A stretch of 64,000 nt of DNA from a virus (taxonomy: Duplodnaviria > Caudoviricetes): positions 1-64,000 of the IMG/VR virus record IMGVR_UViG_3300027804_000057. One strand, given 5' to 3'. The notes under the pieces are model-generated. The model made no database searches. It was not told the origin of the DNA and worked only from the letters and a program-made list of their open reading frames with translations. Of this stretch, positions 14,701-46,329 are shown one piece after another; position 1 is the first letter of the stretch, and each line of letters begins with the position of its first letter. The position numbers were made by a program, and so were the translations under genes.

Positions 14701-14967
14701 AAAGATAACCTTGAGAAAATTGGTGATGCTCTTGCAAAAGTTAGACAAATTACTGGTTATACATATAACAGAAAAGACCTCTCCGATAAAGCAAAGAGAC
14801 ATACTGGTGTTATCGCTCAAGATGTTGAAGTAGTTTTACCTGAAGCTGTTGAAGAACACAATGGAATTAAAGGTGTTGCTTATGGTAATATGATGGGACT
14901 AGTTTTTGAAGCTATTAAAGAGTTAGACGATAAATTAGAGGAAATCAAGAAACAACTGAACAAATAA
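11737..14967 (+). CDS. Tail fibre protein with C-terminal intramolecular chaperone (peptidase S74-like)
   Basis: N-terminal DTIDQWRIQTN baseplate-anchor-like motif, beta repeats (GNVVTL.SNVAT), A-N-x-A-Y heptads, and a C-terminal SDRKLKDN...GYTYNR...GVIAQDVE.VLPEAV...VAYGNM.GLVFEAIKEL chaperone motif. Confidence 0.8.
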   Translation: MPTSTIPTIARSDTIDQWRIQTNKSATDLNDLGFFTYEKDQGQLLISNTANVSITASGTPLSVANNVLFQSNLTLANNMFLGVVGAATGNLISGGTIRITGPGTALNVANNVLVGADVQVVNNVYVQNITANGNVSVTRNITSAGILRLSGLANVMYVNTGTATINRVLSTYMYADDVFTANLTAAVATIGVLNYLPYANIGTIDNNLLNSNDINSNTLDTTYGNVTVLVARTSANLVTLTSNVSTINNGTVQNLVSTNSTITNGTVINGNVVTLSSNVATINTLTALVGTTITGNVVTLTSNVATVNTGTIQTLLSSNANVTNASITYLSSSNTITANTLISNNIEVSTANAAWINVSNNLSVKTGGAIRVYANTVEDEVLTVDGKTTLQTTYIRGNIAVEGTWTALGNVEYEVSEFTLNANTPTNADATIRNNRVVGTDALIRWDETDDQWKISKGNTYSSLYGILDASFLNATVTSNSTANVATPSAVKAAYDTAVVAGGYGNSAYTLANTANQTATSASSYANGAFTAANTANTFLIITSAIVGNVANLALNLATTANANSNLAFFHANAAFTLANTVSAGSVDNFARENGNSANTLATTANNNARSAGSYANSAFEVANTALNNASIAFNLAETANTNAALANVAAASANTLAGSAWTLANVANTTATLATTLGNGALLKTSASSQTIASDLTINGDVTFPNAKRLISYNAFISGDIRANGNFVVVNNGLLDTSGPTQPGGIRVKRGTSTDAYIRWNESVSPPRWQYSDNAGNFTDFNAASLLASKATNIAGGSGFRIPYQSAADTTTFIDAPSVGDRFLQWTGSAFAWSSVTPNLTNLSASNLTSGTVPSARMSGSYAIDISGKASTAGNADTVSNGVYTTQSYSNPSFISSLAYSKLTGAPTIPTNTNQLTNGAGFVTGTPWTSYGYLTSAVTSVSTGNGLSGSITSTGTLTMSGSYTGTFSVTGSITSSGNVTAFSDRKLKDNLEKIGDALAKVRQITGYTYNRKDLSDKAKRHTGVIAQDVEVVLPEAVEEHNGIKGVAYGNMMGLVFEAIKELDDKLEEIKKQLNK

Positions 14968-31517: not shown

Positions 31518-31877
31518 ATGGCAAACCCGAACATAGTAGCGGTAACGACAATTAACGGAAACACAACGGTGCAATCAATCACAACAGCTGCAACTGCAAT
31601 TGTTGAAAATGGTTCTGGTAGTGGTAAAGTTTATAAGATTAACTGTTTGATTATTGCTAACGTTGATGGTACAAATGCATCAGACATTACAGTTGACTTA
31701 TATAGAAATTCAACTGCATATAAAATTGTTAATACTGTTTCTGTTGCAGCCGACAGTTCATTTACCGCAATTGACAAAACACTGTCTCTGTACCTATTGG
31801 AGGGTGATGCACTACGTTTGACCGCTGGCAATAACAGCAGACTTCAAGGCGTATGTTCATTTGAGGAGATTTCTTAA
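31518..31877 (+). CDS. Small beta-rich fibre adaptor-like protein (119 aa, MANPNIV type)
   Basis: IIANVDG...ITVDL...IVNTVSVAADSS...LYLLEGDALR...SFEEIS; follows a fibre ending in AIAMAIVFG. Confidence 0.65.
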   Translation: MANPNIVAVTTINGNTTVQSITTAATAIVENGSGSGKVYKINCLIIANVDGTNASDITVDLYRNSTAYKIVNTVSVAADSSFTAIDKTLSLYLLEGDALRLTAGNNSRLQGVCSFEEIS

Positions 31878-34800
31878 TGTTTAATGCTGGTGTTCGTGGT
31901 AAAAGAGCAAAAGACGGTGTTGGTTTTTTATCAACTGCCGAACAGTTTAATCAAAAGAGTTTTCTTGTTCCAACAGTAACATCATTCTCGGTTACTGACG
32001 TTTCTTATGTTCCACTAGATAACACTGCCGTAGATACTGCAGGTGGTGAAACGATTGTTATTAATGGTTCAGGTTTTGCTCCTGGTGCCACAGTTCAAGT
32101 TGGTGCCACAACAATTGGTTCAGTAACATTCATTGACCAAAACAGATTGGCATTCACTGCACCAGCACTCAGTTCTGGCAGTTACACAATCTATGTCACA
32201 AACAGTAATGGTGGTACAGGCATATTATTATCTGGTTTGGTGTATTCTGGATTACCAACATATACAACAACGGCAGGAACACTAGGCACAATCTATGAAA
32301 CTGCAAACATCAATACTGCCGTTGTTGCCACAGGTGATGCGCCGATTACATATTCGGTAATATCAGGTACATTGCCATCTGGTGCAACGCTAAATTCAAA
32401 TGGTACAATCACTGGTAATGCACCAGTCGATGGTTCAAGTACAACATATTCATTTACAATTCAAGCATCTGACGCACAGTTACAAGATTCTACACGTGCA
32501 TTTACGTTAACAATTAATACAGATGTTTTGACTTGGGGACTGGCAAACAATACAGTGTATTCATTGGATGGTGGTACAACAATGTCCAACGTTACATTGA
32601 GTGCAACAAGTTCGGCTAATTCAAACTCTGCTGTGACATTTGCAGCCAATACATTACCGACAGGTGTGTCTTTATCTGGCAATACAATATTTGGAACACC
32701 AACAACAGAACAAACAGTCTATTCTACATTGACTGCTACTGCAACTCAAACAGGAAGAACTGCGACTCGTTTTGTTTCTTGGGTAGTTTCTGTTTCAGAT
32801 TTGTTTTTTAAATATAATACACTAGCAATTCAAGGTGCTGATACAACATTTGTAGATGATGCTAGTACGAATAACTTTGCTGTAACAATTAATGGCGATA
32901 CAAAGCCAAACAGTTTTAACCCATACACACCGGGTTATTATAGTAATTATTTTGATGGATTGGGTGATTGGTTGACAATACCTAATAATACAGGGTTTGC
33001 GTTTGGATCGGGTGCATTTACTATTGAGATGTGGGTAAATATAAGTGGATCCAGTGGAACAGTAGCTAATTATTCAAATGGGCAAACATCCAATTCAAAT
33101 TTTTCATGGGAGTTATATCAGGTTAATTCAACTACTATAAATTTTTCAGTGTTAGAAGGTGCCACACAGTACTCATCCTCATCAGCTTCATTTTCATTAA
33201 ACAAATGGAATCATATTGCTTGTGTTAGAAATGGTAATACACTAACTATTTATGTAAATGGAGTAGCCGGCGGAACTACTGCAAATTTAACCGGAGTTAC
33301 TGTTACTGAACCAGCAGGATCAACACTTAAATTATGTTCATATGGCAATGGTTCAAGTTATGTAACTGGTTATATTTCTAACTTCCGAGTAGTTAAAGGC
33401 ACTGCGGTATATACAGCGGCATTTACTCCAAGCACTACACCACTTACAGCAATATCCGGTACAAGTGTATTAACCTGTCAATCTAATCGTTTTATTGATA
33501 CTAGTACTAATGCATTAACAATAACAGTTACTGGCAATACATTAATAAGTTCATTTGATCCATTCATACCAAACAGTAGTTATAGTACATATGGTAGTGG
33601 ATACTTTGATGGTACTGGGGATTATTTAGGTTTAGGTAGCAATTCTTCATCTTCATTTGGTACAAGTAATTTTACTGTTGAATGCTGGGTGTACATGACT
33701 GCTAACAGCAGTTACAGGATGCTATTAGGAAATGGCACATCTTATTTATGCGTTGTTGATGGTGCGTTAAATGCTTTTTACACTGGTGTAAGTATTTCTA
33801 GTACTAGTACAGTTCCCTTAAATACTTGGACTCATGTTGCATTTGTTCGTTCTTCAGGAACAATGTATTTTTATATTAATGGGATTTTATCAGGTTCAGG
33901 AGCGTTTGGTGGTACGTGGGGTGCAATTGGTGTAAGTAATATTGGCTTTTCAGCGGCATATCCTGGCTTGTATTTTTACACCGGATATATCTCTGACCTG
34001 CGTATAGTTAAAGAAACTGCAGTATACACCACAGCATTCACACCTCCATCAGCACCATTAACCGCTATAGCAAATACAAGTTTATTAACATTACAAAACA
34101 ATCAATCAGTAAACAATAGTGTGTTTTTAGATAATAGTACTAATAATTTTTTAGTGACACGCAACGGTAATGCTACTCAAGGTACATTTAGTCCTTATGG
34201 TGGTAACTGGAGTAACTACTTTGGTGGACAAATGGTTTCAACATTAAGTCCATCTTCTACTAAATTTAATTTGACAGGTGATTTCACACTTGAAGCATAT
34301 GTATTTCTTACTGCATTACCTGGTGGTGATTGGGGCATTTTAGATGCAAGGACCGCAGGAGCTAGTCCAACATCATGGTTATTTGGATTCAATGGATCCG
34401 GTAAAATGCAATACTATGATGGAACCGCACGTGTTGGTGCAACCACAATTACTCTCAACACTTGGCATCACGTATCATGGGTTAGAAATGGTTCTGTATT
34501 ACGTGCATATTTAAATGGTGTTTTAGATTATTACAACGGATCATATGGTACAAGTGCAATTAGTCCGGGTTCAACTGCTCCGGTTATTGGTACTAAAGAT
34601 TATGGCATCAGTGCGGCATGGGGAACAACAGGTTATATTAGTAACCTAAGAGTTGTTAATGGCACGGCTGTTTATACAACATCATCAACAACAGTTGGTA
34701 CAACAATATTTACACCAAGTACTACACCATTAACACCAATTGCAAATACAACTTTATTGACATGTGCTGATAGTAGATTTATAGATGACAGTATAAACAA

Positions 34801-36679
34801 CTATACTATAACACCAAGTTCTACTACAATTTCAGCACAACGTTTCAGTCCATTCAATCCATCATCAGTAACCCCAACAAGTTATAGTGGTTATTTTGAT
34901 GGTACGGGGGATTACTTGACATGGTCTGGTACTACAGTTGGTACAGGAGCAATGACTTTTGAATGCTGGTTTTATTATACAGGTTCTTTTAGCGGAATAT
35001 CATCTTTCATCGGACCGGGTAGTGCTATTACTGGTGGATTAAATTGCAATCTTAATAATTCGACAACATTTTCTTTTGATGCGTATGGCGTAACAGCTAA
35101 TAATTTTACTGTTCCAACAATAGCCGCAAATACTTGGAACCATGTCGCTTTTGTAAGAAATTCAAGCAATGTAGCAACAGTATTTTTTAATGGTGTTAGA
35201 TCAAGTACAGGAACAGTATCAGATACATACAGTTATACAACTTCTGCCGCTATTGGATACACAGGTGGAGTAGTCCCGAGAAATTGGATTGGATATATTT
35301 CCAACGCAAGATTGGTTGTTGGGTCTAATGTTTACGACCCAACCTTAACAACGATTACTGTCCCAACAACTCCGTTAACCGCTATCGCAAATACAAGTTT
35401 ATTAACATTACAATCACCAACATTTATTGATAACAGTACAAACAACTTTACGATTACTGCATTTGGTAATAGTCAACCAAGACAACAAAACCCATTCGGT
35501 TATACAAGTACAACAACTAATGGCTATACACCAAGTACAATTGGCGGTAGTGTTTACTTTGACGGTACTGGTGATTATTTAAGTATTCCTGCCGGTACGT
35601 ACCTGCAATTTACAGGTAATTACACTATAGAATTTTGGATATATTTTACAAGTGTATCGGGTGACCAAGATTTAGTTTCAAATTATGTGTCTAATACATC
35701 TGCGGATTGGACTATTGTTTTATCTACAACATTCCAATATTATCCAAGTAGTGCTGCTTCAGCTGTCGTCGGACCGACTGCAATTGCTAATAGATGGTAT
35801 CATTTTGCAGCAGTTAGATCCGGGACAACTTGTTCTATGTATATTGACGGCGTATCAGTTGGCACGCCATTAACTTTCTCGGGAACATTGGGCGATGCAA
35901 CAAGACCAGCATATATAGGTTCAAGAGGTGGTAGTAGTAATTTTACACGTGGTTATATGTCAGATGTCCGAATTACAAAATCTGCACTATACACAAGTAA
36001 CTTTGTACCACCTGCACAACCACTACTCGCAGTACAAAATACAGTATCATTACTTAATATGACCAGTGCTGGTATCTACGATGCCGCAATGATGACTACA
36101 ATGGAAACACTAGGTGATGCAAAACTAAGTACAGCAGTAACTAAGTTTGGTTCTAGTAGTATGAGTTTTGATGGTACTGGGGATTATTTAAAAGCACCCT
36201 ACAATCCAGCATACTCGTTACCCGGAGACTTTACGGTAGAAACATGGATTTATTTAACATCGGCTGCAGGAACAGGTAATCAAACTATTGCCTCTTATCA
36301 ATATAATAATTCTGATGGAACAGGAGTTTGGGGATTTTACTTAAACGGATCTGGACCTTACACTCTATATTTTAATACACAAGGTACTAACCATGCTAGT
36401 ACTACTACTGTTGCTATTCCTATTAATACTTGGACACACGTTACTTATTGTAGATCAGGATCCACTGGTAGATTTTTTGTTAATGGTACCATTGTAGGTT
36501 CAAGTGTAGCTGATTCTAGCACATATAGTTCAACTTCAGGATCATTATTCGTTGGTATTATGTCTAACGCATCATCAGCTCCGTTATATGGTTATTTAGA
36601 CGACTTCCGTATTACTAACGGTTATGCACGTTATACAAGTAACTTTACGCCACCAACCACAACATTTAAAATCAAGTAA
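31877..36679 (+). CDS. Multi-domain adhesin: IPT/Ig-like N-terminus plus six LamG/concanavalin-A-like domains (1600 aa)
   Basis: GGETIVINGSGF (IPT-like) and Ig-like LPSGATL motifs, then six repeats of (F)DG.GDYL...FT.E.W...W.H.A.VR...Y.NG...GYIS..R...A.YT..F.PP. Confidence 0.85.
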   Translation: MFNAGVRGKRAKDGVGFLSTAEQFNQKSFLVPTVTSFSVTDVSYVPLDNTAVDTAGGETIVINGSGFAPGATVQVGATTIGSVTFIDQNRLAFTAPALSSGSYTIYVTNSNGGTGILLSGLVYSGLPTYTTTAGTLGTIYETANINTAVVATGDAPITYSVISGTLPSGATLNSNGTITGNAPVDGSSTTYSFTIQASDAQLQDSTRAFTLTINTDVLTWGLANNTVYSLDGGTTMSNVTLSATSSANSNSAVTFAANTLPTGVSLSGNTIFGTPTTEQTVYSTLTATATQTGRTATRFVSWVVSVSDLFFKYNTLAIQGADTTFVDDASTNNFAVTINGDTKPNSFNPYTPGYYSNYFDGLGDWLTIPNNTGFAFGSGAFTIEMWVNISGSSGTVANYSNGQTSNSNFSWELYQVNSTTINFSVLEGATQYSSSSASFSLNKWNHIACVRNGNTLTIYVNGVAGGTTANLTGVTVTEPAGSTLKLCSYGNGSSYVTGYISNFRVVKGTAVYTAAFTPSTTPLTAISGTSVLTCQSNRFIDTSTNALTITVTGNTLISSFDPFIPNSSYSTYGSGYFDGTGDYLGLGSNSSSSFGTSNFTVECWVYMTANSSYRMLLGNGTSYLCVVDGALNAFYTGVSISSTSTVPLNTWTHVAFVRSSGTMYFYINGILSGSGAFGGTWGAIGVSNIGFSAAYPGLYFYTGYISDLRIVKETAVYTTAFTPPSAPLTAIANTSLLTLQNNQSVNNSVFLDNSTNNFLVTRNGNATQGTFSPYGGNWSNYFGGQMVSTLSPSSTKFNLTGDFTLEAYVFLTALPGGDWGILDARTAGASPTSWLFGFNGSGKMQYYDGTARVGATTITLNTWHHVSWVRNGSVLRAYLNGVLDYYNGSYGTSAISPGSTAPVIGTKDYGISAAWGTTGYISNLRVVNGTAVYTTSSTTVGTTIFTPSTTPLTPIANTTLLTCADSRFIDDSINNYTITPSSTTISAQRFSPFNPSSVTPTSYSGYFDGTGDYLTWSGTTVGTGAMTFECWFYYTGSFSGISSFIGPGSAITGGLNCNLNNSTTFSFDAYGVTANNFTVPTIAANTWNHVAFVRNSSNVATVFFNGVRSSTGTVSDTYSYTTSAAIGYTGGVVPRNWIGYISNARLVVGSNVYDPTLTTITVPTTPLTAIANTSLLTLQSPTFIDNSTNNFTITAFGNSQPRQQNPFGYTSTTTNGYTPSTIGGSVYFDGTGDYLSIPAGTYLQFTGNYTIEFWIYFTSVSGDQDLVSNYVSNTSADWTIVLSTTFQYYPSSAASAVVGPTAIANRWYHFAAVRSGTTCSMYIDGVSVGTPLTFSGTLGDATRPAYIGSRGGSSNFTRGYMSDVRITKSALYTSNFVPPAQPLLAVQNTVSLLNMTSAGIYDAAMMTTMETLGDAKLSTAVTKFGSSSMSFDGTGDYLKAPYNPAYSLPGDFTVETWIYLTSAAGTGNQTIASYQYNNSDGTGVWGFYLNGSGPYTLYFNTQGTNHASTTTVAIPINTWTHVTYCRSGSTGRFFVNGTIVGSSVADSSTYSSTSGSLFVGIMSNASSAPLYGYLDDFRITNGYARYTSNFTPPTTTFKIK

Positions 36680-36987: not shown

Positions 36988-38862
36988 ATGCCAACACAGA
37001 TACAATTAAGAAGAGGTAGTACTGTACAAACGTCTACCTTTACTGGCGCAGCAGGTGAGATTACAGTAGATACCGATAAGAAAGTAGTTGTTGTACACGA
37101 TGGTTCTTCTGCTGGTGGTATTCCTCTTGCACGTGGTAATCATGCACAAGCTGCGTTTGATGCGGCCAATACTACATCAACTGGTGCAACTTCTGCTGGT
37201 TCGTATGCCAACTCTGCTTACTCAACGGCAAACACGGCTGCAACCAATGCTTTATCTGCTGGTGTATATGCTAATGCAGCCTTTTCAGCTGCCAACAATG
37301 CAGTAGATACATGGGTTAGAAATGCCGCAAACTCAGCAAGTTCTTATGCCAATGGTGCTTTTGCAGTGGCCAACACCAAGTTCTCATCAACCGGTGGCAC
37401 TATTTCTGGTGACGTTGTTATCACTGGTAACTTGAGTGTATCGGGCAACGTATTCCAAGTTGACGCAACAAATCTAAGCGTTGAAGATAATATGATTTAT
37501 CTTAACGCAAATAATACCGTGGCGAATCCTGACCTTGGTTTTGCTGGTAACTACAACGATGGTGCTTATCACCACGCAGGTATGTTCCGTGATGCCACCG
37601 ATGGAATATGGAAGTTCTTTTATAATTACGATCCTGAACCAGATGCATCACCTTATATTGACACAAGTCATGCATCATTTAGAATTGCCAACATTACGGC
37701 TAATTTGATTACTGACGTTGCGACTATCCGTGGTTACGATCCAATCAATCATTCTAATGCCGCTTATGCACAAGCTAATGCCGCATATAACGCAGCCAAT
37801 AACTCAACTGATACGTGGGTTCGTAACGCAACCAATGCCGCAAGTTCGTATGCCAACTCTGCATATGCTGTTGCGAATACTGGTAATACGACTGCAACTT
37901 CAGCTTCTAGTTATGCCAACTCAGCATATCTACAGGCAAATACTGCTACGACAAATGCGGCAACTGCTGACCAACGTGCGGTAACTTCTGGTGTTTATGC
38001 CAATGCTGCCTATGGTGTTGCAAACTCCGCAAGTTCTTATGCCAACGGTGCTTTCACACAGGCAAACTCTGCATTCAATAACGGTACTTCTGCGTCTTCG
38101 TATGCCAATGGTGCATTCTCTGCAGCTAATGCAGCCAGTTCTTATGCCAACTCTGCATATGCAAAGGCCAATACAGCTGGCGGTGGTTCAGGACTATTCA
38201 ACTCTGCAATTAACGTAGCAACTGGTTACGCAATCACAAGTTCTTTGGCCAATGCCGTTGTATTCACTGCAAATGCCACAATTTATTCTATCTACGTAAC
38301 AAACATTGGTCCAGATGTTAATGCTGCCGTGACTGTTACTGCTGACTTTACACCAACAGGTTCTTCTGCAAACGTTTCTTTGTTTAGAAATATTCCAATT
38401 CCATCTCGTTCTTCTGTAGAGATGTTGAAGAAACCACAAGTTGTTAAGGCAAATGACATTATCAAAATGCAATCGTTTGTCAATGGCACTGCAGCATCTT
38501 CTAATGCACACGTAACTATTGTATATGAAACTACTGCACTATCTTCATATGACAGAGCAACTGCATTGGCTGGTACTGGTTACTCCACACTTTACACTGC
38601 ATCAGGTAGTCCAGCAGTTATTGAGAGTATCAAAGTTGTTAACCAAGACACTGCATTTGGCAACCATGCAATCAGTATTATCTGGTCAAACTCAAGCAAT
38701 ACTATTCAAGGTTACATTGCCAAAGACATTATTTTACCTGCAAACTCAACAATCGAGTTGTGTGAGGCACCAAAATATCTATATGCTGGAGATGAACTAG
38801 ATATCTATTCATCATATGCTAACGTAGTGTCGGTGTTTGTGTCAGCTAAACGTACAGCATAA
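36988..38862 (+). CDS. Fibre protein C (624 aa): Mtd N-terminal-like domain, heptads, type-B knob and two fused adaptor-like domains
   Basis: MPTQIQLRRG...FTGAAGEITVDTDKKVVVVHDG..AGG.PLA matches the major-tropism-determinant N-terminal motif. The C-terminus carries two copies of the adaptor pattern. Confidence 0.75.
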   Translation: MPTQIQLRRGSTVQTSTFTGAAGEITVDTDKKVVVVHDGSSAGGIPLARGNHAQAAFDAANTTSTGATSAGSYANSAYSTANTAATNALSAGVYANAAFSAANNAVDTWVRNAANSASSYANGAFAVANTKFSSTGGTISGDVVITGNLSVSGNVFQVDATNLSVEDNMIYLNANNTVANPDLGFAGNYNDGAYHHAGMFRDATDGIWKFFYNYDPEPDASPYIDTSHASFRIANITANLITDVATIRGYDPINHSNAAYAQANAAYNAANNSTDTWVRNATNAASSYANSAYAVANTGNTTATSASSYANSAYLQANTATTNAATADQRAVTSGVYANAAYGVANSASSYANGAFTQANSAFNNGTSASSYANGAFSAANAASSYANSAYAKANTAGGGSGLFNSAINVATGYAITSSLANAVVFTANATIYSIYVTNIGPDVNAAVTVTADFTPTGSSANVSLFRNIPIPSRSSVEMLKKPQVVKANDIIKMQSFVNGTAASSNAHVTIVYETTALSSYDRATALAGTGYSTLYTASGSPAVIESIKVVNQDTAFGNHAISIIWSNSSNTIQGYIAKDIILPANSTIELCEAPKYLYAGDELDIYSSYANVVSVFVSAKRTA

Positions 38863-38872
38863 GAGAATCAAC

Positions 38873-39829
38873 ATGGCAATCAGTGGAATATTATCATCTC
38901 AGAATCATTACAACCAGAGGGTTAGTGGTTCATGGCCAACTAGTTTTTATGTGTATGCACCTGTTCTTACCCAGAAAGCTATATTTGGATATGGGTTTCA
39001 GTCGAGTGGCGCGTTATCCATGACCAACCTAGTATCAAATACAGGTGTAGTTGATAATGATGTAACTGGTGTAGGTACTGCTAGACGTTATCTAGCGGCA
39101 GCAGGATATGGTAGTGATAAAGCTATATTTGGATATGGACATAGTGGTGTATCACGTATATCGATAACCAATCTAGTATCAAATACAGGTGTAGTTGCTA
39201 GTGATACGGCAGGTGTAGGTACTGGTAGAAGTGACCTAGCGGCTGCCGGTTATGGAAGTTCTGGTCAAGCTATTTTTGGATATGGATTTTCTGATGTAGG
39301 TTATCAATCAGTAACTAATCTAGTATCAAACACAGGTGTCGTTGCTACCGATACAACGGGTGTTGGTACTGCTAGATTTGCACTTGCGGCCGCAGGATAT
39401 GGCGGTGATAAAGCTATATTTGGATATGGATACAGTACTAATATAACCAATCTAGTATCAAATACAGGTGTAGTTGCTAGTGATACGGCAGGTGTTGGTA
39501 CTGCTAGAAGTTATCTCGCAGCCGCAAGGTATGGTAGTGATAAAGCACTATTTGGATATGGTAACAATGGTGGACTTTATCAATCAATAACCAATCTAGT
39601 ATCAAACACAGGTGTTGTTTCTACTGATACTGCAGGTGTCGGTACTGCTAGAAGTTCTTTAGCAGCCGCAGGTTATGGTGGTGATAAAGCTATATTTGGA
39701 TATGGAAATGGCGGATCAAATACATCAGTAACCAATCTAGTATCAAACACTGGTGTAGTTGCTACTAATACCGCTGGTGTTGGTACTGCTAGACAAGGCC
39801 TTGCAGCTGCTGGTTTTTCACTAACATAA
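38873..39829 (+). CDS. Six-repeat Kelch-like beta-propeller protein, paralog 1
   Basis: Likely start MAISG at 38873, downstream of the fibre C stop. Six repeats of KAIFGYG-x-TNLVSNTGVV..DT.GVGTAR-xx-LAAAGYG.D follow a leader ending GSWPT. Confidence 0.75.
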   Translation: MAISGILSSQNHYNQRVSGSWPTSFYVYAPVLTQKAIFGYGFQSSGALSMTNLVSNTGVVDNDVTGVGTARRYLAAAGYGSDKAIFGYGHSGVSRISITNLVSNTGVVASDTAGVGTGRSDLAAAGYGSSGQAIFGYGFSDVGYQSVTNLVSNTGVVATDTTGVGTARFALAAAGYGGDKAIFGYGYSTNITNLVSNTGVVASDTAGVGTARSYLAAARYGSDKALFGYGNNGGLYQSITNLVSNTGVVSTDTAGVGTARSSLAAAGYGGDKAIFGYGNGGSNTSVTNLVSNTGVVATNTAGVGTARQGLAAAGFSLT

Positions 39830-39832
39830 ATA
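39825..39832 (+). promoter_or_regulatory. Putative late promoter CATAAATA
   Basis: 7/8 match overlapping the paralog 1 stop, upstream of the GAGG SD and the ATG at 39863. Confidence 0.55.
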
Positions 39833-39862
39833 CATATTTAAACATTATTATGAGGAATCATT

Positions 39863-40531
39863 ATGGCATCAAATCTAAACTCTGAATTCAACTATCGTTA
39901 TCAAGTTATTGGTAGCACACCATGGGAAAAAATTAAAACTCTACAAGGCTTCTTAGTCGGTAGAAAACGTGCAGCGGTACTAGAAGAATGTGGCGAACTT
40001 AAATATCGAGCTAAACTTGAAGAATTGAAACATCTAAAAGAAGTACCTGCATTACCACATATTATTCTTAACTTACAAGCAGAAATTATTGAACTAGAAT
40101 CACACTTAGATGACCAAAAACATGCTTTTGAATTGAATCGTAAAGAGATTAAAATATTGGAAAAACTAATGGCTGAACTCTATGCTGAAGTCGAACCAAC
40201 AAGACTTAAGCATGAAGACGGTACACCTTATACTGATGACGAAATGTTTGAAGCTAATGCTAACTATGAATTCACGGTAACTATTGGTCGTGAGATTCAA
40301 TCGGAAATTATTGCTTTGGGAAGACCTAGTCCAGCTAAACTATTAAATGCAATGAGTAATCCACAGACATTAGAATCATTGATGCAAATTGGTCTTGTAC
40401 CACAAGGTACTATGTTACTAGAGCAGAAAGATATTATGTTACAATTAACTAATCAACGAACTGCTACAATGGAACCACCAAAAGAATTAGGTACATCTGT
40501 TCCTAAAAAGAAAACAAAGAAAAAGATGTAG
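39863..40531 (+). CDS. Hypothetical charged helical/coiled-coil protein (222 aa)
   Basis: Clean ORF with SD. Glu/Lys/Leu-rich helical composition unlike the flanking fibre genes; basic C-terminal tail. Confidence 0.7.
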   Translation: MASNLNSEFNYRYQVIGSTPWEKIKTLQGFLVGRKRAAVLEECGELKYRAKLEELKHLKEVPALPHIILNLQAEIIELESHLDDQKHAFELNRKEIKILEKLMAELYAEVEPTRLKHEDGTPYTDDEMFEANANYEFTVTIGREIQSEIIALGRPSPAKLLNAMSNPQTLESLMQIGLVPQGTMLLEQKDIMLQLTNQRTATMEPPKELGTSVPKKKTKKKM

Positions 40532-40568
40532 TTGTACTAATCAGTAACAACACAACAGGGTAAAACAA

Positions 40569-41528
40569 ATGAGTCTTTTAAACGATATTTTTTCGCTGCG
40601 CCAGATGAATGACCTGAGAGCAGATGGGTTGTGGCCGACTAGTGTTTATGTAGCACTTACCGGCACACAGAAAGCTATATTTGGATATGGATTTAATAAT
40701 AATAATCTCTCAATTACCAACCTAGTAACTAATACTGGTGTTGTTGGTAATGATGTTACAGGAGTCGGTACTGCTAGAAGGGCTCTAGCAGCCGCAGGGT
40801 ATGGTGGTGATAAGGCCATATTTGGATATGGGACTGGTGCTCCATTCGCTGTCTCAATGACCAACCTAGTATCAAATACCGGTGTAGTTGCTAGTGATAC
40901 TGCTGGAGTAGGAACTGCTAGAAGTGTATTAGCAGCCGCAGGTTATGGTACTGATAAAGCTATATTTGGATATGGAACTGGCGGGCCAAATACATCAGTA
41001 ACCAATCTAGTATCAAACACAGGTGTAGTTGCTAGTGATACTACAGGTGTTGGTACTGCTAGAGGTTATTTAGCAGCCGCAGGTTATGGTGGTGATAAAG
41101 CTATATTTGGATATGGAAATGGCGGATCAAATACATCAGTAACCAATCTAGTATCTAATACAGGGGTAGTTGCTACTGATACTGCAGGTGTAGGTACAGG
41201 TAGATTAGAATTAGCAGCCGCAAGTTATGGGACTGATAAAGCTATATTCGGATATGGTGGAACCACTGTAAATGTATCATTAACCAACAAAGTCTCAAAC
41301 ACCGGTGTTGTCGCCACTGATACAACAGGGGTTGGTACTGAAAGAAAAGCACTTGCGGCTGCAGGTTATGGCACAGATAAGGCTATTTTTGGATATGGTG
41401 GTAATAGTTCTGGCACATTATATTCAATGACCAATCTAGTATCAAACACAGGTGTAGTAGCAACTGATACCGCAGGTGTCGGTACTGCTAGATATTATCT
41501 AGCAGCCGCTGGATATTCATTAAGTTAA
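40569..41528 (+). CDS. Six-repeat Kelch-like beta-propeller protein, paralog 2
   Basis: Leader ending GLWPT, then six copies of the same ~46-aa repeat. Confidence 0.75.
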   Translation: MSLLNDIFSLRQMNDLRADGLWPTSVYVALTGTQKAIFGYGFNNNNLSITNLVTNTGVVGNDVTGVGTARRALAAAGYGGDKAIFGYGTGAPFAVSMTNLVSNTGVVASDTAGVGTARSVLAAAGYGTDKAIFGYGTGGPNTSVTNLVSNTGVVASDTTGVGTARGYLAAAGYGGDKAIFGYGNGGSNTSVTNLVSNTGVVATDTAGVGTGRLELAAASYGTDKAIFGYGGTTVNVSLTNKVSNTGVVATDTTGVGTERKALAAAGYGTDKAIFGYGGNSSGTLYSMTNLVSNTGVVATDTAGVGTARYYLAAAGYSLS

Positions 41529-41539
41529 AAGAGTAAAAA

Positions 41540-42502
41540 ATGGCAGAAACAAATATTACAGGCCCACTTTGGGGTTACGAACAACGAAGCAGAAGACTTG
41601 CTGGCTTGTGGCCGACTAGTGTTTATGTAGCACTTACCGGCACACAGAAAGCTATATTTGGATTTGGATCTACTGGCTCTAACTCAAATTTGACCAACCT
41701 AGTATCAAACACAGGTGTAGTTGGAAATGACGTCACTGGTGTTGGTAGTGCTAGAACTAATTTAGCAGCTGCAGGTTATGGTGGTGATAAGGCAATTTTT
41801 GGATATGGATATATATCTTCCGGTGGGCCCACTTATAGCAACCTAGTATCAAATACAGGTGTAGTTGCTACTGATACTGCTAGGGTTGGTACTAATAGAT
41901 ATCAACTAGCGGCCGCCGGTTATGGAACTGATAAAGCTATTTTTGGATATGGAATTAATGCATCAACTGGTAACGGTTCCTCAATAACCAATCTAGTATC
42001 AAACACAGGTGTAGTTGCAAGTGATACTTCAGGTGTTGGTAGTGCTAGAGATAGACTTGCGGCTGCAGGTTATGGAACTGATAAAGCTATTTTTGGATAT
42101 GGTGCTGCTCCAAATGCCGCATCAATGACCAATCTAGTATCAAACACAGGTGTAGTTGCAAGTGATACTTCAGGTGTTGGTAGTGCTAGGACAGGCCTTG
42201 CGGCCGCTGGATACGGAATTGATAAAGCTATTTTTGGATATGGCCGTACTACTGTCAATGTATCAATAACCAATCTAGTATCAAATCTCGGAGTAGTTGC
42301 TACTGATACTACAGGTGTTGGTACTGTTAGGCAATCATTAGCCGCCGCTGGATATGGGGGTGATAAAGCAATTTTTGGATATGGCAACCCTGCCACATCT
42401 ATAACCAATCTAGTATCAAACACAGGTGTGGTAGCAAGTGATACTGCAGGTGTCGGTACAGCTAGATTTGGATTAGCAGCCGCAGGTTATTCATTAAGTT
42501 AA
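41540..42502 (+). CDS. Six-repeat Kelch-like beta-propeller protein, paralog 3
   Basis: Leader ending GLWPT, six repeats. Shares 58 identical bp at the 5' end and 24 identical bp across the stop with paralog 2. Confidence 0.75.
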   Translation: MAETNITGPLWGYEQRSRRLAGLWPTSVYVALTGTQKAIFGFGSTGSNSNLTNLVSNTGVVGNDVTGVGSARTNLAAAGYGGDKAIFGYGYISSGGPTYSNLVSNTGVVATDTARVGTNRYQLAAAGYGTDKAIFGYGINASTGNGSSITNLVSNTGVVASDTSGVGSARDRLAAAGYGTDKAIFGYGAAPNAASMTNLVSNTGVVASDTSGVGSARTGLAAAGYGIDKAIFGYGRTTVNVSITNLVSNLGVVATDTTGVGTVRQSLAAAGYGGDKAIFGYGNPATSITNLVSNTGVVASDTAGVGTARFGLAAAGYSLS

Positions 42503-42537: not shown

Positions 42538-42753
42538 ATGACAGACTTAGAAAACAGGCCTGCTCCAACAGCAGAACAAATTGCACAAGCAAGAGAAAAT
42601 GCAATAAATGCAGAACGACCAGCATCATGGACATGGAATGAGGAGTCAGTATCATATGTTGCACCAGTCGCTATTCCAACCGATGGTTATCCATACTTGT
42701 GGGATGAAGCTACAACTAATTGGGTACCGTTTCCAGATTATCCTAGAGGTTAA
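42538..42753 (+). CDS. Small Trp/Pro-rich hypothetical protein, possibly fibre-assembly related (71 aa)
   Basis: P.SWTWNE...APVAIP.DG..Y.WDE.T.NW pattern; SD AAAGGA; closes the fibre island. Confidence 0.55.
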   Translation: MTDLENRPAPTAEQIAQARENAINAERPASWTWNEESVSYVAPVAIPTDGYPYLWDEATTNWVPFPDYPRG

Positions 42754-42796: not shown

Positions 42797-43750
42797 ATGG
42801 CTGCACCTTCAACAAGAACAGAATTTAAAGACTATTGTCTGCGTAGACTAGGGTTTCCCGTTATTCAAATTAACGTGGATGATGACCAAGTTGACGACCG
42901 TATTGATGATGCTTTACAGTTTTTCCACGACTATCATTTTGATGGTGTTGAAAAGATTTACATGAAGCACAGAATTACACAAGATGATATTGACCGTAAA
43001 TTCATTTACTGTCCTGATCCAGTTATTTTTGTAACTAAAATATTTCCGTTTGATGATTCCAATTCATCAATCAATATGTTTGACCTTCGTTATCAATTGC
43101 GTCTACATGATTTGTATGACTTCACATCGGTATCTTATGTGTCATATGAAATCACTATGCAACACATCACAACACTAAACATGTTGTTCTCTGGTTACCC
43201 ACAACACCGATTCAATCGTCATCAAAACAAAATCTTTTTAGACATTGATTGGTCACGTGATGCGACTTTAGGTGAATATGTGGTTATTGAATGTTATCGT
43301 AAGTTAGCGCCAGATACAGTGATACTAACAGGCACAGTTACGGCAACAAACACATCAAACGTAATGACTGGAACAGGTACAACATTCGACCAACAAATTC
43401 TTGAGGGTGATATCATTACAGTTGGTGGGCAAGATGTACAAGTTAATCGCATCATTTCACCAACACAAGCATATCTAACCACAAACTTAACGACAAGTGT
43501 GACTGATGCGACAGCCACAAAGACTGGTGTGTCTGATGTTTGGGATGATAGATTTTTAAAACAGTATGCCACGGCGTTGATTAAATACCAGTGGGGTACT
43601 AACTTGTCAAAATTTGCTGGTGTACAGATGCCAGGTGGAGTCACGTTAGATGGTCCTCGAATTATGGCTGAAGCACAAGTAGAAATCGATAAGATTGAAA
43701 CTGAGATGCAAGCTTATAACGTTCTACCTCCAGAAATTTTGACTGGTTAA
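42797..43750 (+). CDS. gp13: Neck protein gp13 with an inserted beta domain
   Basis: YCLRRLGFPVIQINVDDDQVDDRIDDALQFF.DYHFDG; W.DRFLKQYATALIK.QWG.NLSKF.GVQMPGGVTLDG. Confidence 0.92.
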   Translation: MAAPSTRTEFKDYCLRRLGFPVIQINVDDDQVDDRIDDALQFFHDYHFDGVEKIYMKHRITQDDIDRKFIYCPDPVIFVTKIFPFDDSNSSINMFDLRYQLRLHDLYDFTSVSYVSYEITMQHITTLNMLFSGYPQHRFNRHQNKIFLDIDWSRDATLGEYVVIECYRKLAPDTVILTGTVTATNTSNVMTGTGTTFDQQILEGDIITVGGQDVQVNRIISPTQAYLTTNLTTSVTDATATKTGVSDVWDDRFLKQYATALIKYQWGTNLSKFAGVQMPGGVTLDGPRIMAEAQVEIDKIETEMQAYNVLPPEILTG

Positions 43751-43753
43751 TGA

Positions 43754-44698
43754 ATGCCTACAAATTTTTACTTTCAACCATTTCCAACAGGAATTACCCA
43801 AGAACAACTACTTGTTGAAGACTTGGTGATTGAGGCCATGCAACAGTATGGTATGGACGTGTTTTACCTACCACGTTCTAGTGCAGACCCTAATGGTCCT
43901 GACACATTGTATGGTGAAGATACACTCAAACAATATAGAGTTGCATTTCCAATTGAAGTATATTTGGAGAATGTTACTGGTATGGATGGTGAACAAGATT
44001 TCATCTCTAAATTTGGACTTGAGATTCGAGATGAATTAACATTACTAATTTCTCGCCGCAGATTTAAGTATGCCTCAGGTGCCACAAACTATAGTATACC
44101 TAGACTTGGTGACTTAGTTATTAACTCTGGACCAAAACGACCAATGGAAGGTGATTTAATTTACATTCCATTGATGCAAAACTTTTTTGAAGTAACTTTT
44201 GTTGAACACGAAAATGATCAAGCAATGTTTTATACATTAGGTCGTGGACGTGGTGGTAATGTTTATGTTTATGCACTGAAACTTAAACAATTTGTATTAT
44301 CTGATGAGTTGATTCAAACTGGTCACACAGAGATAGATGAACAAGCATTTGATTCATACAAGAGAACACGTTTGGATGTACCTATCAATGGCACAGGCAA
44401 ATTTACAGTTGGTGAATTTGTTTATCAAGGCAATTCTTTGGCAACTGCCAATGCGGTGGCCACGGTGCATACAACAGTTCCTGGTAGACACTTAGATGTG
44501 GTTAATGTCAAGGGTCAGTTTACAGTTGGTGTCACCATCATTGGCGCAACAAGTGGTGCAACATGGGCACTAGAAACTGCAGCTGACGATATGCCAACAG
44601 ACAGTGTGTTTGAAGATGTTGCCGATAATAATATTATTCAAGATGAAGCTGGCGACATACTCGACTTCACTGAACACAACCCATTTGGTGAACCTTAA
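43754..44698 (+). CDS. gp14: Neck protein gp14
   Basis: EQLLVEDLVIEA..YG.DVFYLPR, SKFGLEIRDE, RPMEGDLIY.P, C-terminal DILDFTE.NPFGE. Confidence 0.92.
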   Translation: MPTNFYFQPFPTGITQEQLLVEDLVIEAMQQYGMDVFYLPRSSADPNGPDTLYGEDTLKQYRVAFPIEVYLENVTGMDGEQDFISKFGLEIRDELTLLISRRRFKYASGATNYSIPRLGDLVINSGPKRPMEGDLIYIPLMQNFFEVTFVEHENDQAMFYTLGRGRGGNVYVYALKLKQFVLSDELIQTGHTEIDEQAFDSYKRTRLDVPINGTGKFTVGEFVYQGNSLATANAVATVHTTVPGRHLDVVNVKGQFTVGVTIIGATSGATWALETAADDMPTDSVFEDVADNNIIQDEAGDILDFTEHNPFGEP

Positions 44699-45497: not shown

Positions 45498-45893
45498 ATG
45501 AAAAAATTAGATGAAAATTTATCTCAACTGTTGGAGATAGAACCATTGGAATCTGCTGGTCAGTTAGTACACACTGACTTAACACCAGATATTGCTGATG
45601 ATGCTGAGTTTGCTCGGCAAAATATACGTGAGATGATTACCAAAGGTAACTCTGCAATGGACACTTTGATACACGTTGCTAAAGATACTCATCACCCAAG
45701 AGCATTCGAGGTTGTGGCCACAATGCTTAAGAATATGTCTGACCTAAATAAAGACCTAATGGAAATTCAAAAGCGTAAAAAAGATTTAGCACCAAAATCC
45801 ATGAGTGATAAATCAATGAATATAGATAAGGCTGTGTTTGTTGGTTCAACCACAGAATTGGTAAAGTTTTTAAAGTCAAATAAAGAGAAATAA
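45498..45893 (+). CDS. gp16: Terminase small subunit gp16
   Basis: DD.EFARQN...HPRAFEVVA.MLK and C-terminal AVFVGSTTEL.KFL. Confidence 0.88.
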   Translation: MKKLDENLSQLLEIEPLESAGQLVHTDLTPDIADDAEFARQNIREMITKGNSAMDTLIHVAKDTHHPRAFEVVATMLKNMSDLNKDLMEIQKRKKDLAPKSMSDKSMNIDKAVFVGSTTELVKFLKSNKEK

Positions 45894-45894
45894 T

Positions 45895-46329
45895 ATGGAA
45901 CAATTAATTCAACAATTGAAAGTTATACTAGGCACAAATTTTGCCTTGTATTTTAAGGCACACGGATTTCACTGGAATGTAGAAGGTGTAAACTTCCAAC
46001 AGTACCACGATTTCTTTGCTGAGTTGTATACATCAATATTTAATAATACTGATTTAATTGCCGAAAAGATTCGTATGTTGGATGCATATGCACCAGGTTC
46101 GTTATTGAGAATGTTGGAATTGGCAGACGTAGAAGAATCAGCAATCATTCCTTCTCCAATTTCTATGATGGCAGAATTGAAAAGAGATAACGATAGAATG
46201 ATGGTTCATCTCCGTGCAGGTATTGTTGCTGCTGACCAAGCAGGAGAACCAGCTATTGGTAATTTCTTGCAAGACTTGTTAGACCAACACCAAAAACATG
46301 CATGGATGTTAAGAAGTTTTATTAAATAA
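45895..46329 (+). CDS. dps: Dps-family ferritin-like DNA-protection protein
   Basis: KAHGFHWNVEGVNF..YH...D.IAEKIR.L ferroxidase signature and C-terminal HQKHAWMLRS. Confidence 0.88.
   Translation: MEQLIQQLKVILGTNFALYFKAHGFHWNVEGVNFQQYHDFFAELYTSIFNNTDLIAEKIRMLDAYAPGSLLRMLELADVEESAIIPSPISMMAELKRDNDRMMVHLRAGIVAADQAGEPAIGNFLQDLLDQHQKHAWMLRSFIK

What the first reader, a model, noticed from the sequence alone, without database searches (positions are those of the whole stretch)
38873..42502. Three six-bladed Kelch-like propellers with antibody-like hypervariable sites on an almost invariant scaffold: candidate RT-independent receptor-diversification system
Seen: 18 blades share KAIFGYG-[loop]-TNLVSNTGVV..DT.GVG(T/S).R-[XX]-LAAAGYG.D, with strong DNA conservation including many synonymous sites. 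The XX dipeptide differs in all 18 blades (RY SD FA SY SS QG / RA SV GY LE KA YY / TN YQ DR TG QS FG). The loop has 17 different sequences of variable length (e.g. FQSSGALSM, YSTNI, FNNNNLSI, INASTGNGSSI), rich in Ser, Gly, Asn, Thr and Tyr. Knowledge: in Kelch propellers the loop after the GG motif and the residues around the conserved Arg line the top binding face. Inference: a combinatorial binding-surface library, VLR/CDR-like, in which the conserved scaffold allows recombination to shuffle blades within and between paralogs. Loop-length changes and the absence of an RT in the window argue against a classical DGR.
Basis: partly seen in the sequence, partly recalled or inferred. Interest (0 to 1): 0.82.

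Follow-up and report, generated by a model that had tools for sequence, protein, structure and literature searches.

The report
Phage Kelch-like propeller host-binding heads
Three neighbouring genes of an uncultured freshwater T4-like phage encode six-bladed Kelch-type propellers, most likely host-binding heads, whose binding-face loops differ in every blade because blades are swapped by ordinary recombination and selected for change, not because the phage carries a diversifying machine.

Summary
Genes A (38873-39829), B (40569-41528) and C (41540-42502) each encode a ~35-aa N-terminal adaptor plus six ~47-aa repeats. The frame is near-invariant. A length-variable loop after FGYG has 17 sequences in 18 blades, and the dipeptide after the conserved Arg has 18.

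A confident AlphaFold model (pLDDT 94.9) is a six-bladed Kelch-type propeller (Z 33 to KLHL12/KEAP1). By strand topology both variable sites lie on the face that binds substrate in KEAP1, opposite the termini.

The domain belongs to a very large, unnamed, phage-only family. It usually sits at the C-terminus of fibre or LamG proteins, so it is most likely a receptor-binding head.

Diversity comes from general recombination and positive selection:
- an 87-nt exact out-of-register copy between A and B;
- half-blade breakpoints;
- a sister strain ~98-99% identical in the flanks but 78-86% in the propellers, mosaic blade by blade;
- dN at the dipeptide 2.3-7.7 times scaffold dS.

No dedicated or fast mechanism was found. 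The 86-kb record has no RT or template. Contigs of one lineage from different samples and years have unchanged loops.

This scan found the same family before on other DNA. Interest is moderate.

The parts
38873..39829 (+). Propeller gene A (318 aa): N-terminal adaptor 38873-38974, six blades 38975-39826
   Evidence: ORF and blade parsing. 72% identical to B. Mosaic against sister strain L006: blades 2 and 5 are 95-96% identical, the others 76-83%.
40569..41528 (+). Propeller gene B (319 aa): adaptor 40569-40670, six blades 40671-41525. This is the protein that was modelled.
   Evidence: AlphaFold2 model pLDDT 94.9, pTM 0.89. Kelch domains are the top structural matches, Z 33. 100% identical in L005.
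41540..42502 (+). Propeller gene C (320 aa): adaptor 41540-41647, six blades 41648-42499
   Evidence: The adaptor DNA is 96% identical to that of B (family D5).
39658..39744 (+). 87-nt exact copy, arm 1: junction of blades A5/A6, including the whole A6 loop
   Evidence: Longest exact direct repeat in the region. It is out of register (blade 6 of A against blade 4 of B), on a background of 77% scaffold identity for that blade pair.
41069..41155 (+). 87-nt exact copy, arm 2: junction of blades B3/B4, including the whole B4 loop
   Evidence: This is a gene-conversion or recombination tract that carried a loop between paralogs.
39863..40531 (+). Conserved 222-aa helical protein between A and B. 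It travels with the propeller genes; function unknown.
   Evidence: No Pfam or PHROG hit. Homologues lie directly upstream of an adaptor-bearing propeller gene in 41 of 77 related loci, at 81-100% aa identity. Its pS of 0.45-0.52 holds even against phages whose gp14 is saturated.
42538..42753 (+). Conserved 71-aa protein downstream of C; right-hand border of the variable cassette
   Evidence: phrog_7759, unknown function. Found in 28 loci at 83-100% aa identity.
36988..38862 (+). Tail fibre (624 aa) with an Mtd_N-type N-terminus, immediately upstream
   Evidence: PF18454, 3.8e-15, and tail-fibre PHROGs. Its N-terminus and shaft repeats are homologous to P0018, in which the same kind of shaft ends in a propeller.
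42797..44698 (+). Neck genes gp13-like and gp14-like. They fix the locus in the T4-type structural module.
   Evidence: phrog_211, phrog_460 and PF11649. gp14 is 37% identical to cyanomyovirus gp14.

Best explanation
A, B and C are three paralogous, free-standing receptor-binding heads of a freshwater T4-like myovirus.

Structure. Each is a six-bladed Kelch-type beta-propeller closed by its C-terminal strand. A ~35-aa N-terminal adaptor leaves from the face that bears the termini. The opposite face carries six B-C loops (the length-variable loop after FGYG) and six D-A loop ends (the XX dipeptide, next to the central channel). Because these residues differ in every blade, the face most likely forms one composite, asymmetric binding surface for a host envelope structure (inferred), rather than six copies of one sugar site.

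How the diversity arises. No dedicated mechanism makes it.
(1) The frame is held by purifying selection. Its DNA offers 30-90-nt identical tracts on both sides of each variable site.
(2) General homologous recombination crosses over in these tracts, between paralogs in one genome and between co-infecting phages. It moves whole blades, half blades and whole genes.
(3) Diversifying selection, presumably from host receptor variation, fixes replacements at the XX and loop positions faster than neutral change.

Shown: fold, topology, family architecture, recombination footprints, rate contrasts, stability within lineages. Inferred: presence in the virion, what is bound, and which recombination enzymes act.
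For: Fold.
- AlphaFold2 with 95 sequences gives pLDDT 94.9 and pTM 0.89.
- Foldseek's top hits are the Kelch domains of KLHL12/17/20 and KEAP1, E about 1e-14, TM 0.73-0.82.
- VIA-align gives Z 33.1, rmsd 2.4 A over 276 residues, against Z 26 or less for other propellers.

Topology.
- DSSP order is strand A (LAAAGY), turn G-x-D, strand B (KAIFG), variable loop, strand C (TNLV), turn SNTG, strand D, then GVGTAR-XX into the next strand A.
- So the loop and XX share one face, and the chain termini lie on the other.
- KEAP1 binds substrate in the pocket made by its D-A and B-C loops (PMC12314335).

Binding-head role.
- The locus lies between a tail fibre and neck genes gp13/gp14.
- The module is C-terminal in at least 158 of 255 relatives, behind Mtd_N fibre shafts, Laminin_G_3 and other N-termini, in proteins of 300-4359 aa.
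- Family-wide entropy peaks at the same two sites, which are rich in Tyr, Ser, Gly, Thr and Asn.
- There is weak profile similarity to the PLL/PHL lectins (E 7e-7).

Recombination.
- An 87-nt exact out-of-register match carries a whole loop.
- C5 against a blade of L010 is identical for 63 nt and then about 72% identical.
- Strain L006 is 97-99% identical in the flanks, but 85.5, 80.2 and 78.2% in A, B and C. Its blades A2 and A5 are 95-96% identical and the others 71-83%. L010 shows the same pattern.
- Scaffold pS is the same within the window (0.41) as against other phages (0.41-0.50), even where gp13/gp14 are saturated at pS 0.68-0.80. The blades therefore form a shared pool.

Selection.
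- Scaffold dN/dS is 0.14.
- pN(XX)/pS(scaffold) is 2.3-7.7, p 1e-4 or lower. For equal-length loops the ratio is 1.1-2.4, and 22-59% of pairs also differ in loop length.

No dedicated mechanism.
- No RVT_1 in the record, and no blade copy outside the three genes.
- Same-lineage contigs show 4 SNPs in 28 kb of variable codons, against 854 in 726 kb of flanks.
- B and C are identical in L005, while six SNPs fall in gp13.
Against: - No cultured phage carries the domain: tblastn against 50,697 phage records found nothing. Virion location and binding are therefore untested.
- How a free-standing head is attached is unknown.
- Apparent synonymous differences are also raised at loop and XX codons, by 1.4-7 times. 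This may be a multiple-hit artefact or patch replacement, but it leaves room for a locally raised change rate.
- All population evidence comes from consensus contigs, which hide rare variants.
- The record is only about 48% complete, so an accessory gene elsewhere cannot be excluded.
- Some relatives (e.g. L020) have nearly identical loops in all six blades. That fits a multivalent lectin better than a composite site.
Confidence: 0.65

Rival explanations
1. A dedicated, RT-independent diversification system. In this reading the phage actively and frequently rewrites blades or loops, by programmed gene conversion among 18 cassettes (VLR- or pilin-like), to generate receptor variants within a population.
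For: - There are 18 cassette-like units with exact-match DNA flanking each variable site.
- At least one loop was transferred between paralogs.
- Strains with about 99% identical flanks carry different blade mosaics.
- The conserved codons are rare ones, which could suggest constraint at the DNA level.
Against: - There is no recombinase, nuclease or other accessory gene in the locus, which holds only structural genes.
- All three genes are intact and expressible, not silent donors.
- Loops are unchanged in 86 same-lineage contig pairs and across studies from 2020 to 2025.
- In pairs within 8% overall divergence, synonymous divergence in loops equals that of the scaffold.
- Blades are no more alike within a genome than between genomes. 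This points to population-level exchange rather than an intragenomic engine.
Confidence: 0.05
2. A DGR target whose reverse transcriptase and template repeat lie in the unsequenced half of the genome.
For: - The record is about 48% complete.
- The neighbouring fibre has an Mtd_N domain.
- The variable sites are Tyr/Ser/Asn-rich.
Against: - No RVT_1 hit even at E<=1, and no extra blade-like copy.
- Loops vary in length from 5 to 11 residues.
- XX codons vary at all three positions and end in A, T, C or G, which is not an AAY-type pattern.
- There are 36 separate variable patches in three genes, and the fold is a propeller rather than C-type lectin or Ig.
- Mtd_N is only a common fibre N-terminus.
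Confidence: 0.02
3. A multivalent PLL/AAL-type lectin. In this reading sugars are bound in up to six pockets between adjacent blades, and the variable loop and XX tune each pocket, so there is no single composite top-face site.
For: - The profile of the family hits the Photorhabdus lectins PHL, PLL2, PLL3 and PLL (E 7e-7 to 0.07).
- In that alignment XX falls on the G-R of the D-G-R-L-E strand, and the loop falls on the Q...S-G-P-W loop. These form the polar (Gal) site of PHL, on the half opposite the termini.
- Some relatives carry PF26607 Beta-prop_PLL.
- Relatives such as L020 have near-identical loops in all blades.
- Fusion partners are lectin-like LamG domains.
Against: - The protein has six blades, not seven.
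- The Trp residues that make the PLL fucose pocket are absent.
- The structural best matches are Kelch domains (Z 33), far above the lectin propellers (Z 17-18).
- In true multivalent lectins the binding residues are conserved between blades. Here they differ in all 18.
Confidence: 0.25
4. Not a virion adhesin. In this reading the propellers are enzymes or intracellular host-takeover proteins that happen to lie in the structural module.
For: - Six-bladed propellers include sialidases (Z 16-18).
- The free-standing forms have no shaft.
- There is no experimental evidence of virion location.
Against: - Relatives are fused to fibre shafts and LamG adhesin domains.
- The locus lies between a fibre and the neck genes.
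- The most variable residues are surface loops, and no conserved catalytic-type polar residues stand out on that face.
- Strain-level cassette replacement is typical of host-range determinants.
Confidence: 0.07

Closest known systems
Kelch domains of BTB-Kelch adaptors (KEAP1, KLHL12, KLHL17, KLHL20)
   Same: Six four-stranded blades of about 47 aa. A hydrophobic strand B ends in a Gly-x-Gly, and a conserved Arg precedes strand A. Blade 1 is closed by the C-terminal strand. The ligand face is built from the B-C and D-A loops. Best structural match: Z 33, rmsd 2.4 A.
   Different: No Pfam Kelch hit at E<=0.1. The Tyr/Trp signature pair is absent. Sequence identity is 11-17%. The repeats are far more regular. 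The setting is a viral extracellular adhesin rather than an intracellular ubiquitin-ligase adaptor.
PLL-family lectins of Photorhabdus (PLL, PLL2-5, PHL; Pfam PF26607 Beta-prop_PLL)
   Same: These are the only solved structures found by sequence profile (E 7e-7). The repeat length is alike, as are the G-[TG]-D-[KN]-A-[IL]-aromatic and ...R-L-... strand motifs. The variable sites align with the residues of the polar sugar site, on the half opposite the termini.
   Different: Seven blades against six. The Trp-lined fucose pocket is missing. In the PLL family the binding residues are conserved between blades, whereas here they are hypervariable. The PLL lectins are bacterial secreted proteins, not phage genes.
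Beta-propeller receptor-binding domains of phages (phi11 Gp45 five-bladed platform; PRD1 P2; PhiKZ gp131C seven-bladed; K1F/phi92 endosialidase six-bladed)
   Same: A propeller serves as the host-recognition or glycan-handling part of a tail or baseplate protein (PMC4901313).
   Different: The blade number and family differ, with no sequence relation. Those propellers are not built of near-identical repeats and are not reported to evolve by blade shuffling. No tblastn match in 50,697 phage records.
Diversity-generating retroelements (Bordetella phage BPP-1 Mtd; 'tentaclins')
   Same: A phage receptor-binding protein with an invariant scaffold and a few hypervariable, Tyr/Ser/Asn-rich positions.
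   Different: No RT and no template repeat. There are length changes, no adenine-specific pattern and a different fold. Loops are stable within a lineage.
Segmental gene-conversion repertoires (lamprey VLR, Neisseria pilE/pilS, Borrelia vlsE)
   Same: Repeat units with conserved flanks allow short donor segments to be copied into another unit. One such 87-nt transfer is seen here.
   Different: There is no expression-site and silent-cassette arrangement, no dedicated enzyme or signal, and no sign of frequent switching. Exchange is seen between lineages and phages over evolutionary time.

Membership tests
Kelch-repeat beta-propeller | Six (5-7) blades of 44-56 aa, each a four-stranded antiparallel sheet | tested here: met
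   AlphaFold2 model pLDDT 94.9. Z 33.1 / rmsd 2.4 A / 276 residues to KLHL12, and Z 32.6 to KEAP1. Foldseek E 1e-14.
Kelch-repeat beta-propeller | Match to a Pfam Kelch model | tested here: not met
   No Pfam family at E<=0.1 for A and B, and only an unrelated sub-threshold HATPase_c_4 hit (E 0.042) for C. Only 18-22% of members of some look-alike clusters carry Kelch_1 or Kelch_KLHDC2 hits.
Kelch-repeat beta-propeller | Signature residues: Gly doublet after strand B, a conserved Tyr/Trp pair, and Arg before strand A | tested here: inconclusive
   G-Y-G after strand B and an invariant Arg before XX/strand A are present. The conserved Trp is absent, and the Tyr sits in other positions (motif as described in PMC12314335).
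Kelch-repeat beta-propeller | Closure of blade 1 by the C-terminal strand | tested here: met
   The model starts with strand B at residue 35 and ends with strand A at 312-316, as described for KEAP1.
PLL-family lectin (PF26607 Beta-prop_PLL) | Seven W-motif blades | tested here: not met
   Six repeats in all three genes and in the model.
PLL-family lectin (PF26607 Beta-prop_PLL) | Two conserved Trp per site forming the hydrophobic fucose pocket | tested here: not met
   In the HMMER alignment the Trp positions of PHL (W199, W214 type) face Phe and Leu/Val of the phage repeat. The blades contain no Trp.
PLL-family lectin (PF26607 Beta-prop_PLL) | Significant profile match | tested here: inconclusive
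   Family profile against PDB sequences: PHL E 7.4e-7, PLL2 1.9e-6, others 0.006-0.07. Repeats inflate such scores. PF26607 is not in the local Pfam copy. Precomputed hits exist on 5 of 120 listed relatives.
Diversity-generating retroelement target | Reverse transcriptase in the element | tested here: not met
   No RVT_1 match at E<=1 in the 85,933-base record, while the controls were positive. The record is about 48% complete.
Diversity-generating retroelement target | Template repeat differing from the variable repeat at adenines only, with no length change | tested here: not met
   Blade-like sequence occurs only in the three genes. Loops are 5-11 residues long, and XX codons vary at all three positions.
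Phage receptor-binding (tail-fibre tip) domain | Encoded in the tail-fibre/baseplate module | tested here: met
   It lies between the Mtd_N fibre (36988-38862) and gp13/gp14. Baseplate wedge, gp8, an S74-chaperone fibre and a 6x LamG protein lie upstream.
Phage receptor-binding (tail-fibre tip) domain | Occurs as the distal (C-terminal) module on fibre shafts in relatives | tested here: met
   P0018 is Mtd_N plus shaft repeats plus propeller. P0016 is LamG plus propeller. The domain is C-terminal in most representatives of 300-4359 aa.
Phage receptor-binding (tail-fibre tip) domain | Present in virions and binds the host | not testable with these tools
   No cultured relative and no proteome or binding data.
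Programmed antigenic variation by gene conversion | One expression locus plus silent donor cassettes | tested here: not met
   All three genes are full ORFs with their own starts and adaptors.
Programmed antigenic variation by gene conversion | Frequent switching within a clonal lineage | tested here: not met
   There are 4 SNPs and no indel in 28 kb of variable codons over 86 same-lineage contig pairs, a lower density than in the flanks. Alleles are identical across studies. Consensus contigs cannot show rare variants.

The most novel reading that the evidence does not exclude
The nucleotide-level sameness of the frame is itself selected. The fixed codons are rare, they are shared across phages whose core genes are saturated, and they give exact 30-90-nt tracts on both sides of every variable site. 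In this reading the propeller is an evolvability device. The recombination machinery of T4-like phages uses these tracts to reassort blades and half blades from a pool shared by the whole phage metapopulation, giving combinatorial host-range change at sub-domain resolution without any dedicated enzyme.
Probability: 0.15. Interest if true: 0.75.

Novelty: new variant of a known kind. Interest (0 to 1): 0.5.

Why it matters
The family is very large: at least 750 clusters at 50% identity and more than 2,285 at 90%. It is essentially phage-only, occurs in freshwater (and at least one estuarine) metagenomes, and has no name, no solved structure and no paper that I could find.

It appears to be a common host-recognition head of uncultured T4-like phages. 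It offers an unusually clean natural case in which binding specificity sits on a rigid, repetitive frame and is reassorted blade by blade.

That makes it useful in three ways:
- for reading host range from metagenomes;
- for studying how recombination and selection shape phage receptor-binding proteins below the domain level;
- as a possible scaffold for engineered binders.

It does not reveal a new diversification mechanism.

Tried and rejected
- **First AlphaFold run.** With the 26-sequence alignment A1 it gave pLDDT 50.5 and was discarded. The 95-sequence alignment A2 gave the model used here.
- **Database searches with no hit.** megablast and tblastn of the genes against 50,697 phage records found nothing. 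Pfam and PHROGs gave no hit for A, B, C or the 222-aa protein. tblastn of the 222-aa protein against phages found nothing.
- **PF26607.** It could not be tested because it is not in the local Pfam copy.
- **Scan of bacterial and archaeal genomes.** The search for related loci with A2 failed for lack of a conserved stretch and was repeated with A1. Only six short MAG contigs of unrelated phyla matched, probably mis-binned phage DNA, so there is no host clue.
- **Complex prediction.** The 222-aa protein with propeller B gave no verdict (score 0.00). This is neither support nor evidence against.
- **Read laying.** All four runs are Logan contigs. The 'joints' between repeats, with other letters in between, are what repeats and related phages give at 90% likeness and were not used. 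Word shares of 0.3-0.45 in other runs were not interpreted.
- **Same-lineage SNP comparison.** It keeps only alignments that run through the propellers, so it cannot see cassette replacement. This was corrected by comparing strains through their flanks.
- **Pairs at 12% scaffold divergence or less.** These include non-orthologous blades, so only the 4% and 8% sets were relied on.
- **Literature.** Searches for a Kelch or six-bladed propeller receptor-binding protein of phages found no description of this family.

Full report
**Setting.** The window is the first 64 kb of an 85.9-kb IMG/VR record, estimated about 48% complete. It holds the structural module of a T4-like myovirus:
- baseplate wedge and gp8;
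- several very large fibre proteins, one with an S74 chaperone and one with six Laminin_G_3 domains;
- a 624-aa fibre with an Mtd_N N-terminus;
- the three genes of the finding;
- neck genes gp13 and gp14;
- terminase, sheath, tube, portal and a major capsid protein.

The capsid protein is 64-67% identical to those of cyanomyoviruses and the Methylophilales phage Melnitz. gp14 is only 37% identical to any cultured phage. The runs that hold the stretch are freshwater, lake-water, drinking-water and one estuary metagenome. The host is unknown.

**The observation.** Genes A (38873-39829), B (40569-41528) and C (41540-42502) each encode about 35 N-terminal residues followed by six repeats of 44-50 aa.

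At the DNA level:
- The 18 scaffolds are on average 82% identical, while the XX codons are 33% identical.
- Codons for the same residue are identical in 65.9% of pairs, against 44.8% expected from the phage's own codon usage.
- The fixed codons are often rare ones: GGA, ACC, CTA.

An independent contig from another sample is identical over B and C. The array is therefore not an assembly artefact.

**Fold and position of the variable sites.** A first model from 26 sequences was poor. With 95 diverse relatives the model of B reached pLDDT 94.9 and pTM 0.89.
- Foldseek and an independent all-against-all structural search both put the Kelch domains of KLHL12, KLHL17 and KEAP1 first (E about 1e-14; Z 33, rmsd 2.4 A, 276 residues). 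They stand well above other propellers.
- The strand order in the model is A (LAAAGY), tight turn, B (KAIFG), variable loop, C (TNLV), tight turn, D, then GVGTAR-XX leading into the next strand A.
- In a four-stranded up-and-down sheet the B-C loop and the end of the D-A loop necessarily lie on the same face. The A-B and C-D turns, and both chain termini, lie on the other face.
- In KEAP1 the substrate pocket is made by exactly these D-A and B-C loops, and blade 1 is closed by the C-terminal strand, as here.
- I had no atomic coordinates, so the one-face statement rests on topology, not on measured distances.

**Family.**
- The word-indexed search found more than 2,285 clusters at 90% identity. 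The exhaustive profile search found 750 clusters at 50% identity.
- The six-blade module is mostly C-terminal, in proteins of 300 to 4,359 residues. It sits behind Mtd_N fibre shafts, Laminin_G_3 domains and other N-termini.
- The shaft of one fused relative is homologous to the window's own 624-aa fibre.
- All look-alike clusters in the ESM Atlas are viral.
- Among 185,579 prokaryotic species genomes only six MAG contigs hold the module, and no cultured phage does.
- Across the family, entropy peaks at the same two sites. XX is led by Tyr (23.5% at position 1). The loops are rich in Thr, Gly, Ser, Val, Asn and Tyr, and eight residues is the commonest length.
- A profile of the family hits only the seven-bladed Photorhabdus lectins among solved structures (E 7e-7). 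In that alignment XX and the loop fall on residues of the polar sugar site of PHL, which lies on the half opposite the termini. This agrees with the topology argument.
- Some relatives carry the new Pfam family Beta-prop_PLL or weak Kelch hits. The window's proteins match no relevant Pfam model: none at E<=0.1 for A and B, and only an unrelated sub-threshold HATPase_c_4 hit for C.

**How the diversity arises.**

*Recombination*
- The longest exact repeat in the region is 87 nt (39658-39744 = 41069-41155). It joins the A5/A6 junction to the B3/B4 junction, out of register. It contains a whole loop, on a background of 77% scaffold identity for that blade pair.
- Blade C5 and a blade of another phage are identical for 63 nt, including the loop, and then drop to about 72%. 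The breakpoint lies in the conserved strand-C DNA.
- Most telling are sister strains. L006 is 97-99% identical to the window in the fibre, the 222-aa gene, gp13 and gp14, but 85.5, 80.2 and 78.2% in A, B and C.
- Within A, blades 2 and 5 are 95-96% identical. Blades 1, 3, 4 and 6 are 76-83%, which is the level of unrelated blades.
- The N-terminal adaptors of B and C stay at 94% (A: 84%).
- L010 shows the same pattern: flanks 99-100%, B and C 77-79%.
- Scaffold synonymous divergence is the same within the window (pS 0.41) as against other phages (0.41-0.50). This holds even where gp13/gp14 are saturated (pS 0.68-0.80). The 222-aa and 71-aa flanking genes are likewise under-diverged.
- The blades thus form a pool shared among phages, and the cassette moves between them.

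*Selection*
- Scaffold dN/dS is 0.14.
- In pairs chosen by scaffold similarity alone, pN at XX is 2.3-7.7 times scaffold pS (p 1e-4 or lower). For loops of equal length the ratio is 1.1-2.4, and 22-59% of pairs also differ in loop length.
- In the closest orthologous blades the few changes sit in the loop or in XX.

**What argues against a dedicated or fast mechanism.**
- No reverse transcriptase and no extra blade-like template occur in the record.
- Loop lengths change, and XX codons vary at all three positions.
- All three genes are complete.
- The locus holds only structural genes.
- In 86 pairs of near-identical contigs from different samples the SNP density is 1.2e-3 in flanking DNA, 6e-5 in the frame and 1.4e-4 in variable codons, with no indel.
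- Between the window and L005, all six SNPs lie in gp13 and none in B or C.
- Contigs from other studies (2020-2025, including an estuary) reproduce parts of B and C with 0-2 differences.
- In pairs within 8% overall divergence, synonymous divergence in loops equals that of the frame.
- With pairs chosen on the frame alone it appears raised. I attribute this mainly to multiple hits and patch replacement, but it is the one observation that leaves a small opening.

**Verdict.** So does the recombination part: blades are shuffled within and between paralogs and phages.

The claim of a diversification system comparable to VLR or antibody loci is not supported. The evidence fits a modular receptor-binding head that evolves by general homologous recombination and diversifying selection, with the unusual feature that the exchanged unit is a single blade or half blade.

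Earlier notes of this scan describe the same family in other genomes. One follow-up reached the same reading, and I checked that reading independently here.

How the free-standing heads are mounted remains open. A complex prediction with the conserved 222-aa neighbour gave no verdict.

Noticed in passing
window 39863-40531 and 42538-42753: The 222-aa helical protein and the 71-aa protein that flank the propeller genes are far better conserved between phages than the adjacent neck genes: 81-100% aa identity and pS 0.31-0.52, against gp13/gp14 at 40-55% aa identity and pS 0.68-0.80. The whole block (222-aa gene, propellers, 71-aa gene) therefore looks like a module exchanged between distantly related T4-like phages.
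   Followed up: partly
window 45895-46329: A ferritin/Dps-like gene (PF00210, 2e-23) sits between the small terminase-like gene (45498-45893) and the large terminase gene. This is an unusual insertion in the T4-type packaging block.
   Followed up: no
window 31877-36679: A 1600-aa protein with six Laminin_G_3 (concanavalin-like) domains. In relatives the same domain type is fused directly to the propeller (e.g. P0016). This phage carries a large and varied set of putative adhesins.
   Followed up: no
window 38762-38872: In Logan contigs of two other studies (X6, X7) the last ~110 nt of the fibre gene and the spacer before gene A carry 17-19 differences, while the sequence upstream is nearly identical. 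L006 also drops to 92% here. This looks like the left recombination border of the variable cassette.
   Followed up: partly
L020:426 onward; L014:10049 onward: Some relatives have almost the same 8-residue loop in all six blades (YTGANVSM-type) with only XX varying. The family thus ranges from homogeneous, lectin-like propellers to fully individualised ones like those in the window.
   Followed up: no
L082-L087 (genome contigs): The only 'cellular' occurrences are six short contigs in MAGs of unrelated phyla (Acidimicrobiia, Oligoflexia, Rhodoferax, Bacteroidales, Sulfurovum, SAR202). These are most likely phage contigs mis-binned into MAGs.
   Followed up: no
window 37277-38138: The 624-aa fibre has internal Ala/Asn/Ser-rich shaft repeats (SSYAN-type). 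Contigs of other samples skip 619-774 nt between them, which suggests that shaft length varies among strains or that the repeats collapse in assembly.
   Followed up: no
window 11737-14967: A 1076-aa fibre protein ends in a Peptidase_S74 intramolecular chaperone domain (PF13884, 3.6e-16).
   Followed up: no
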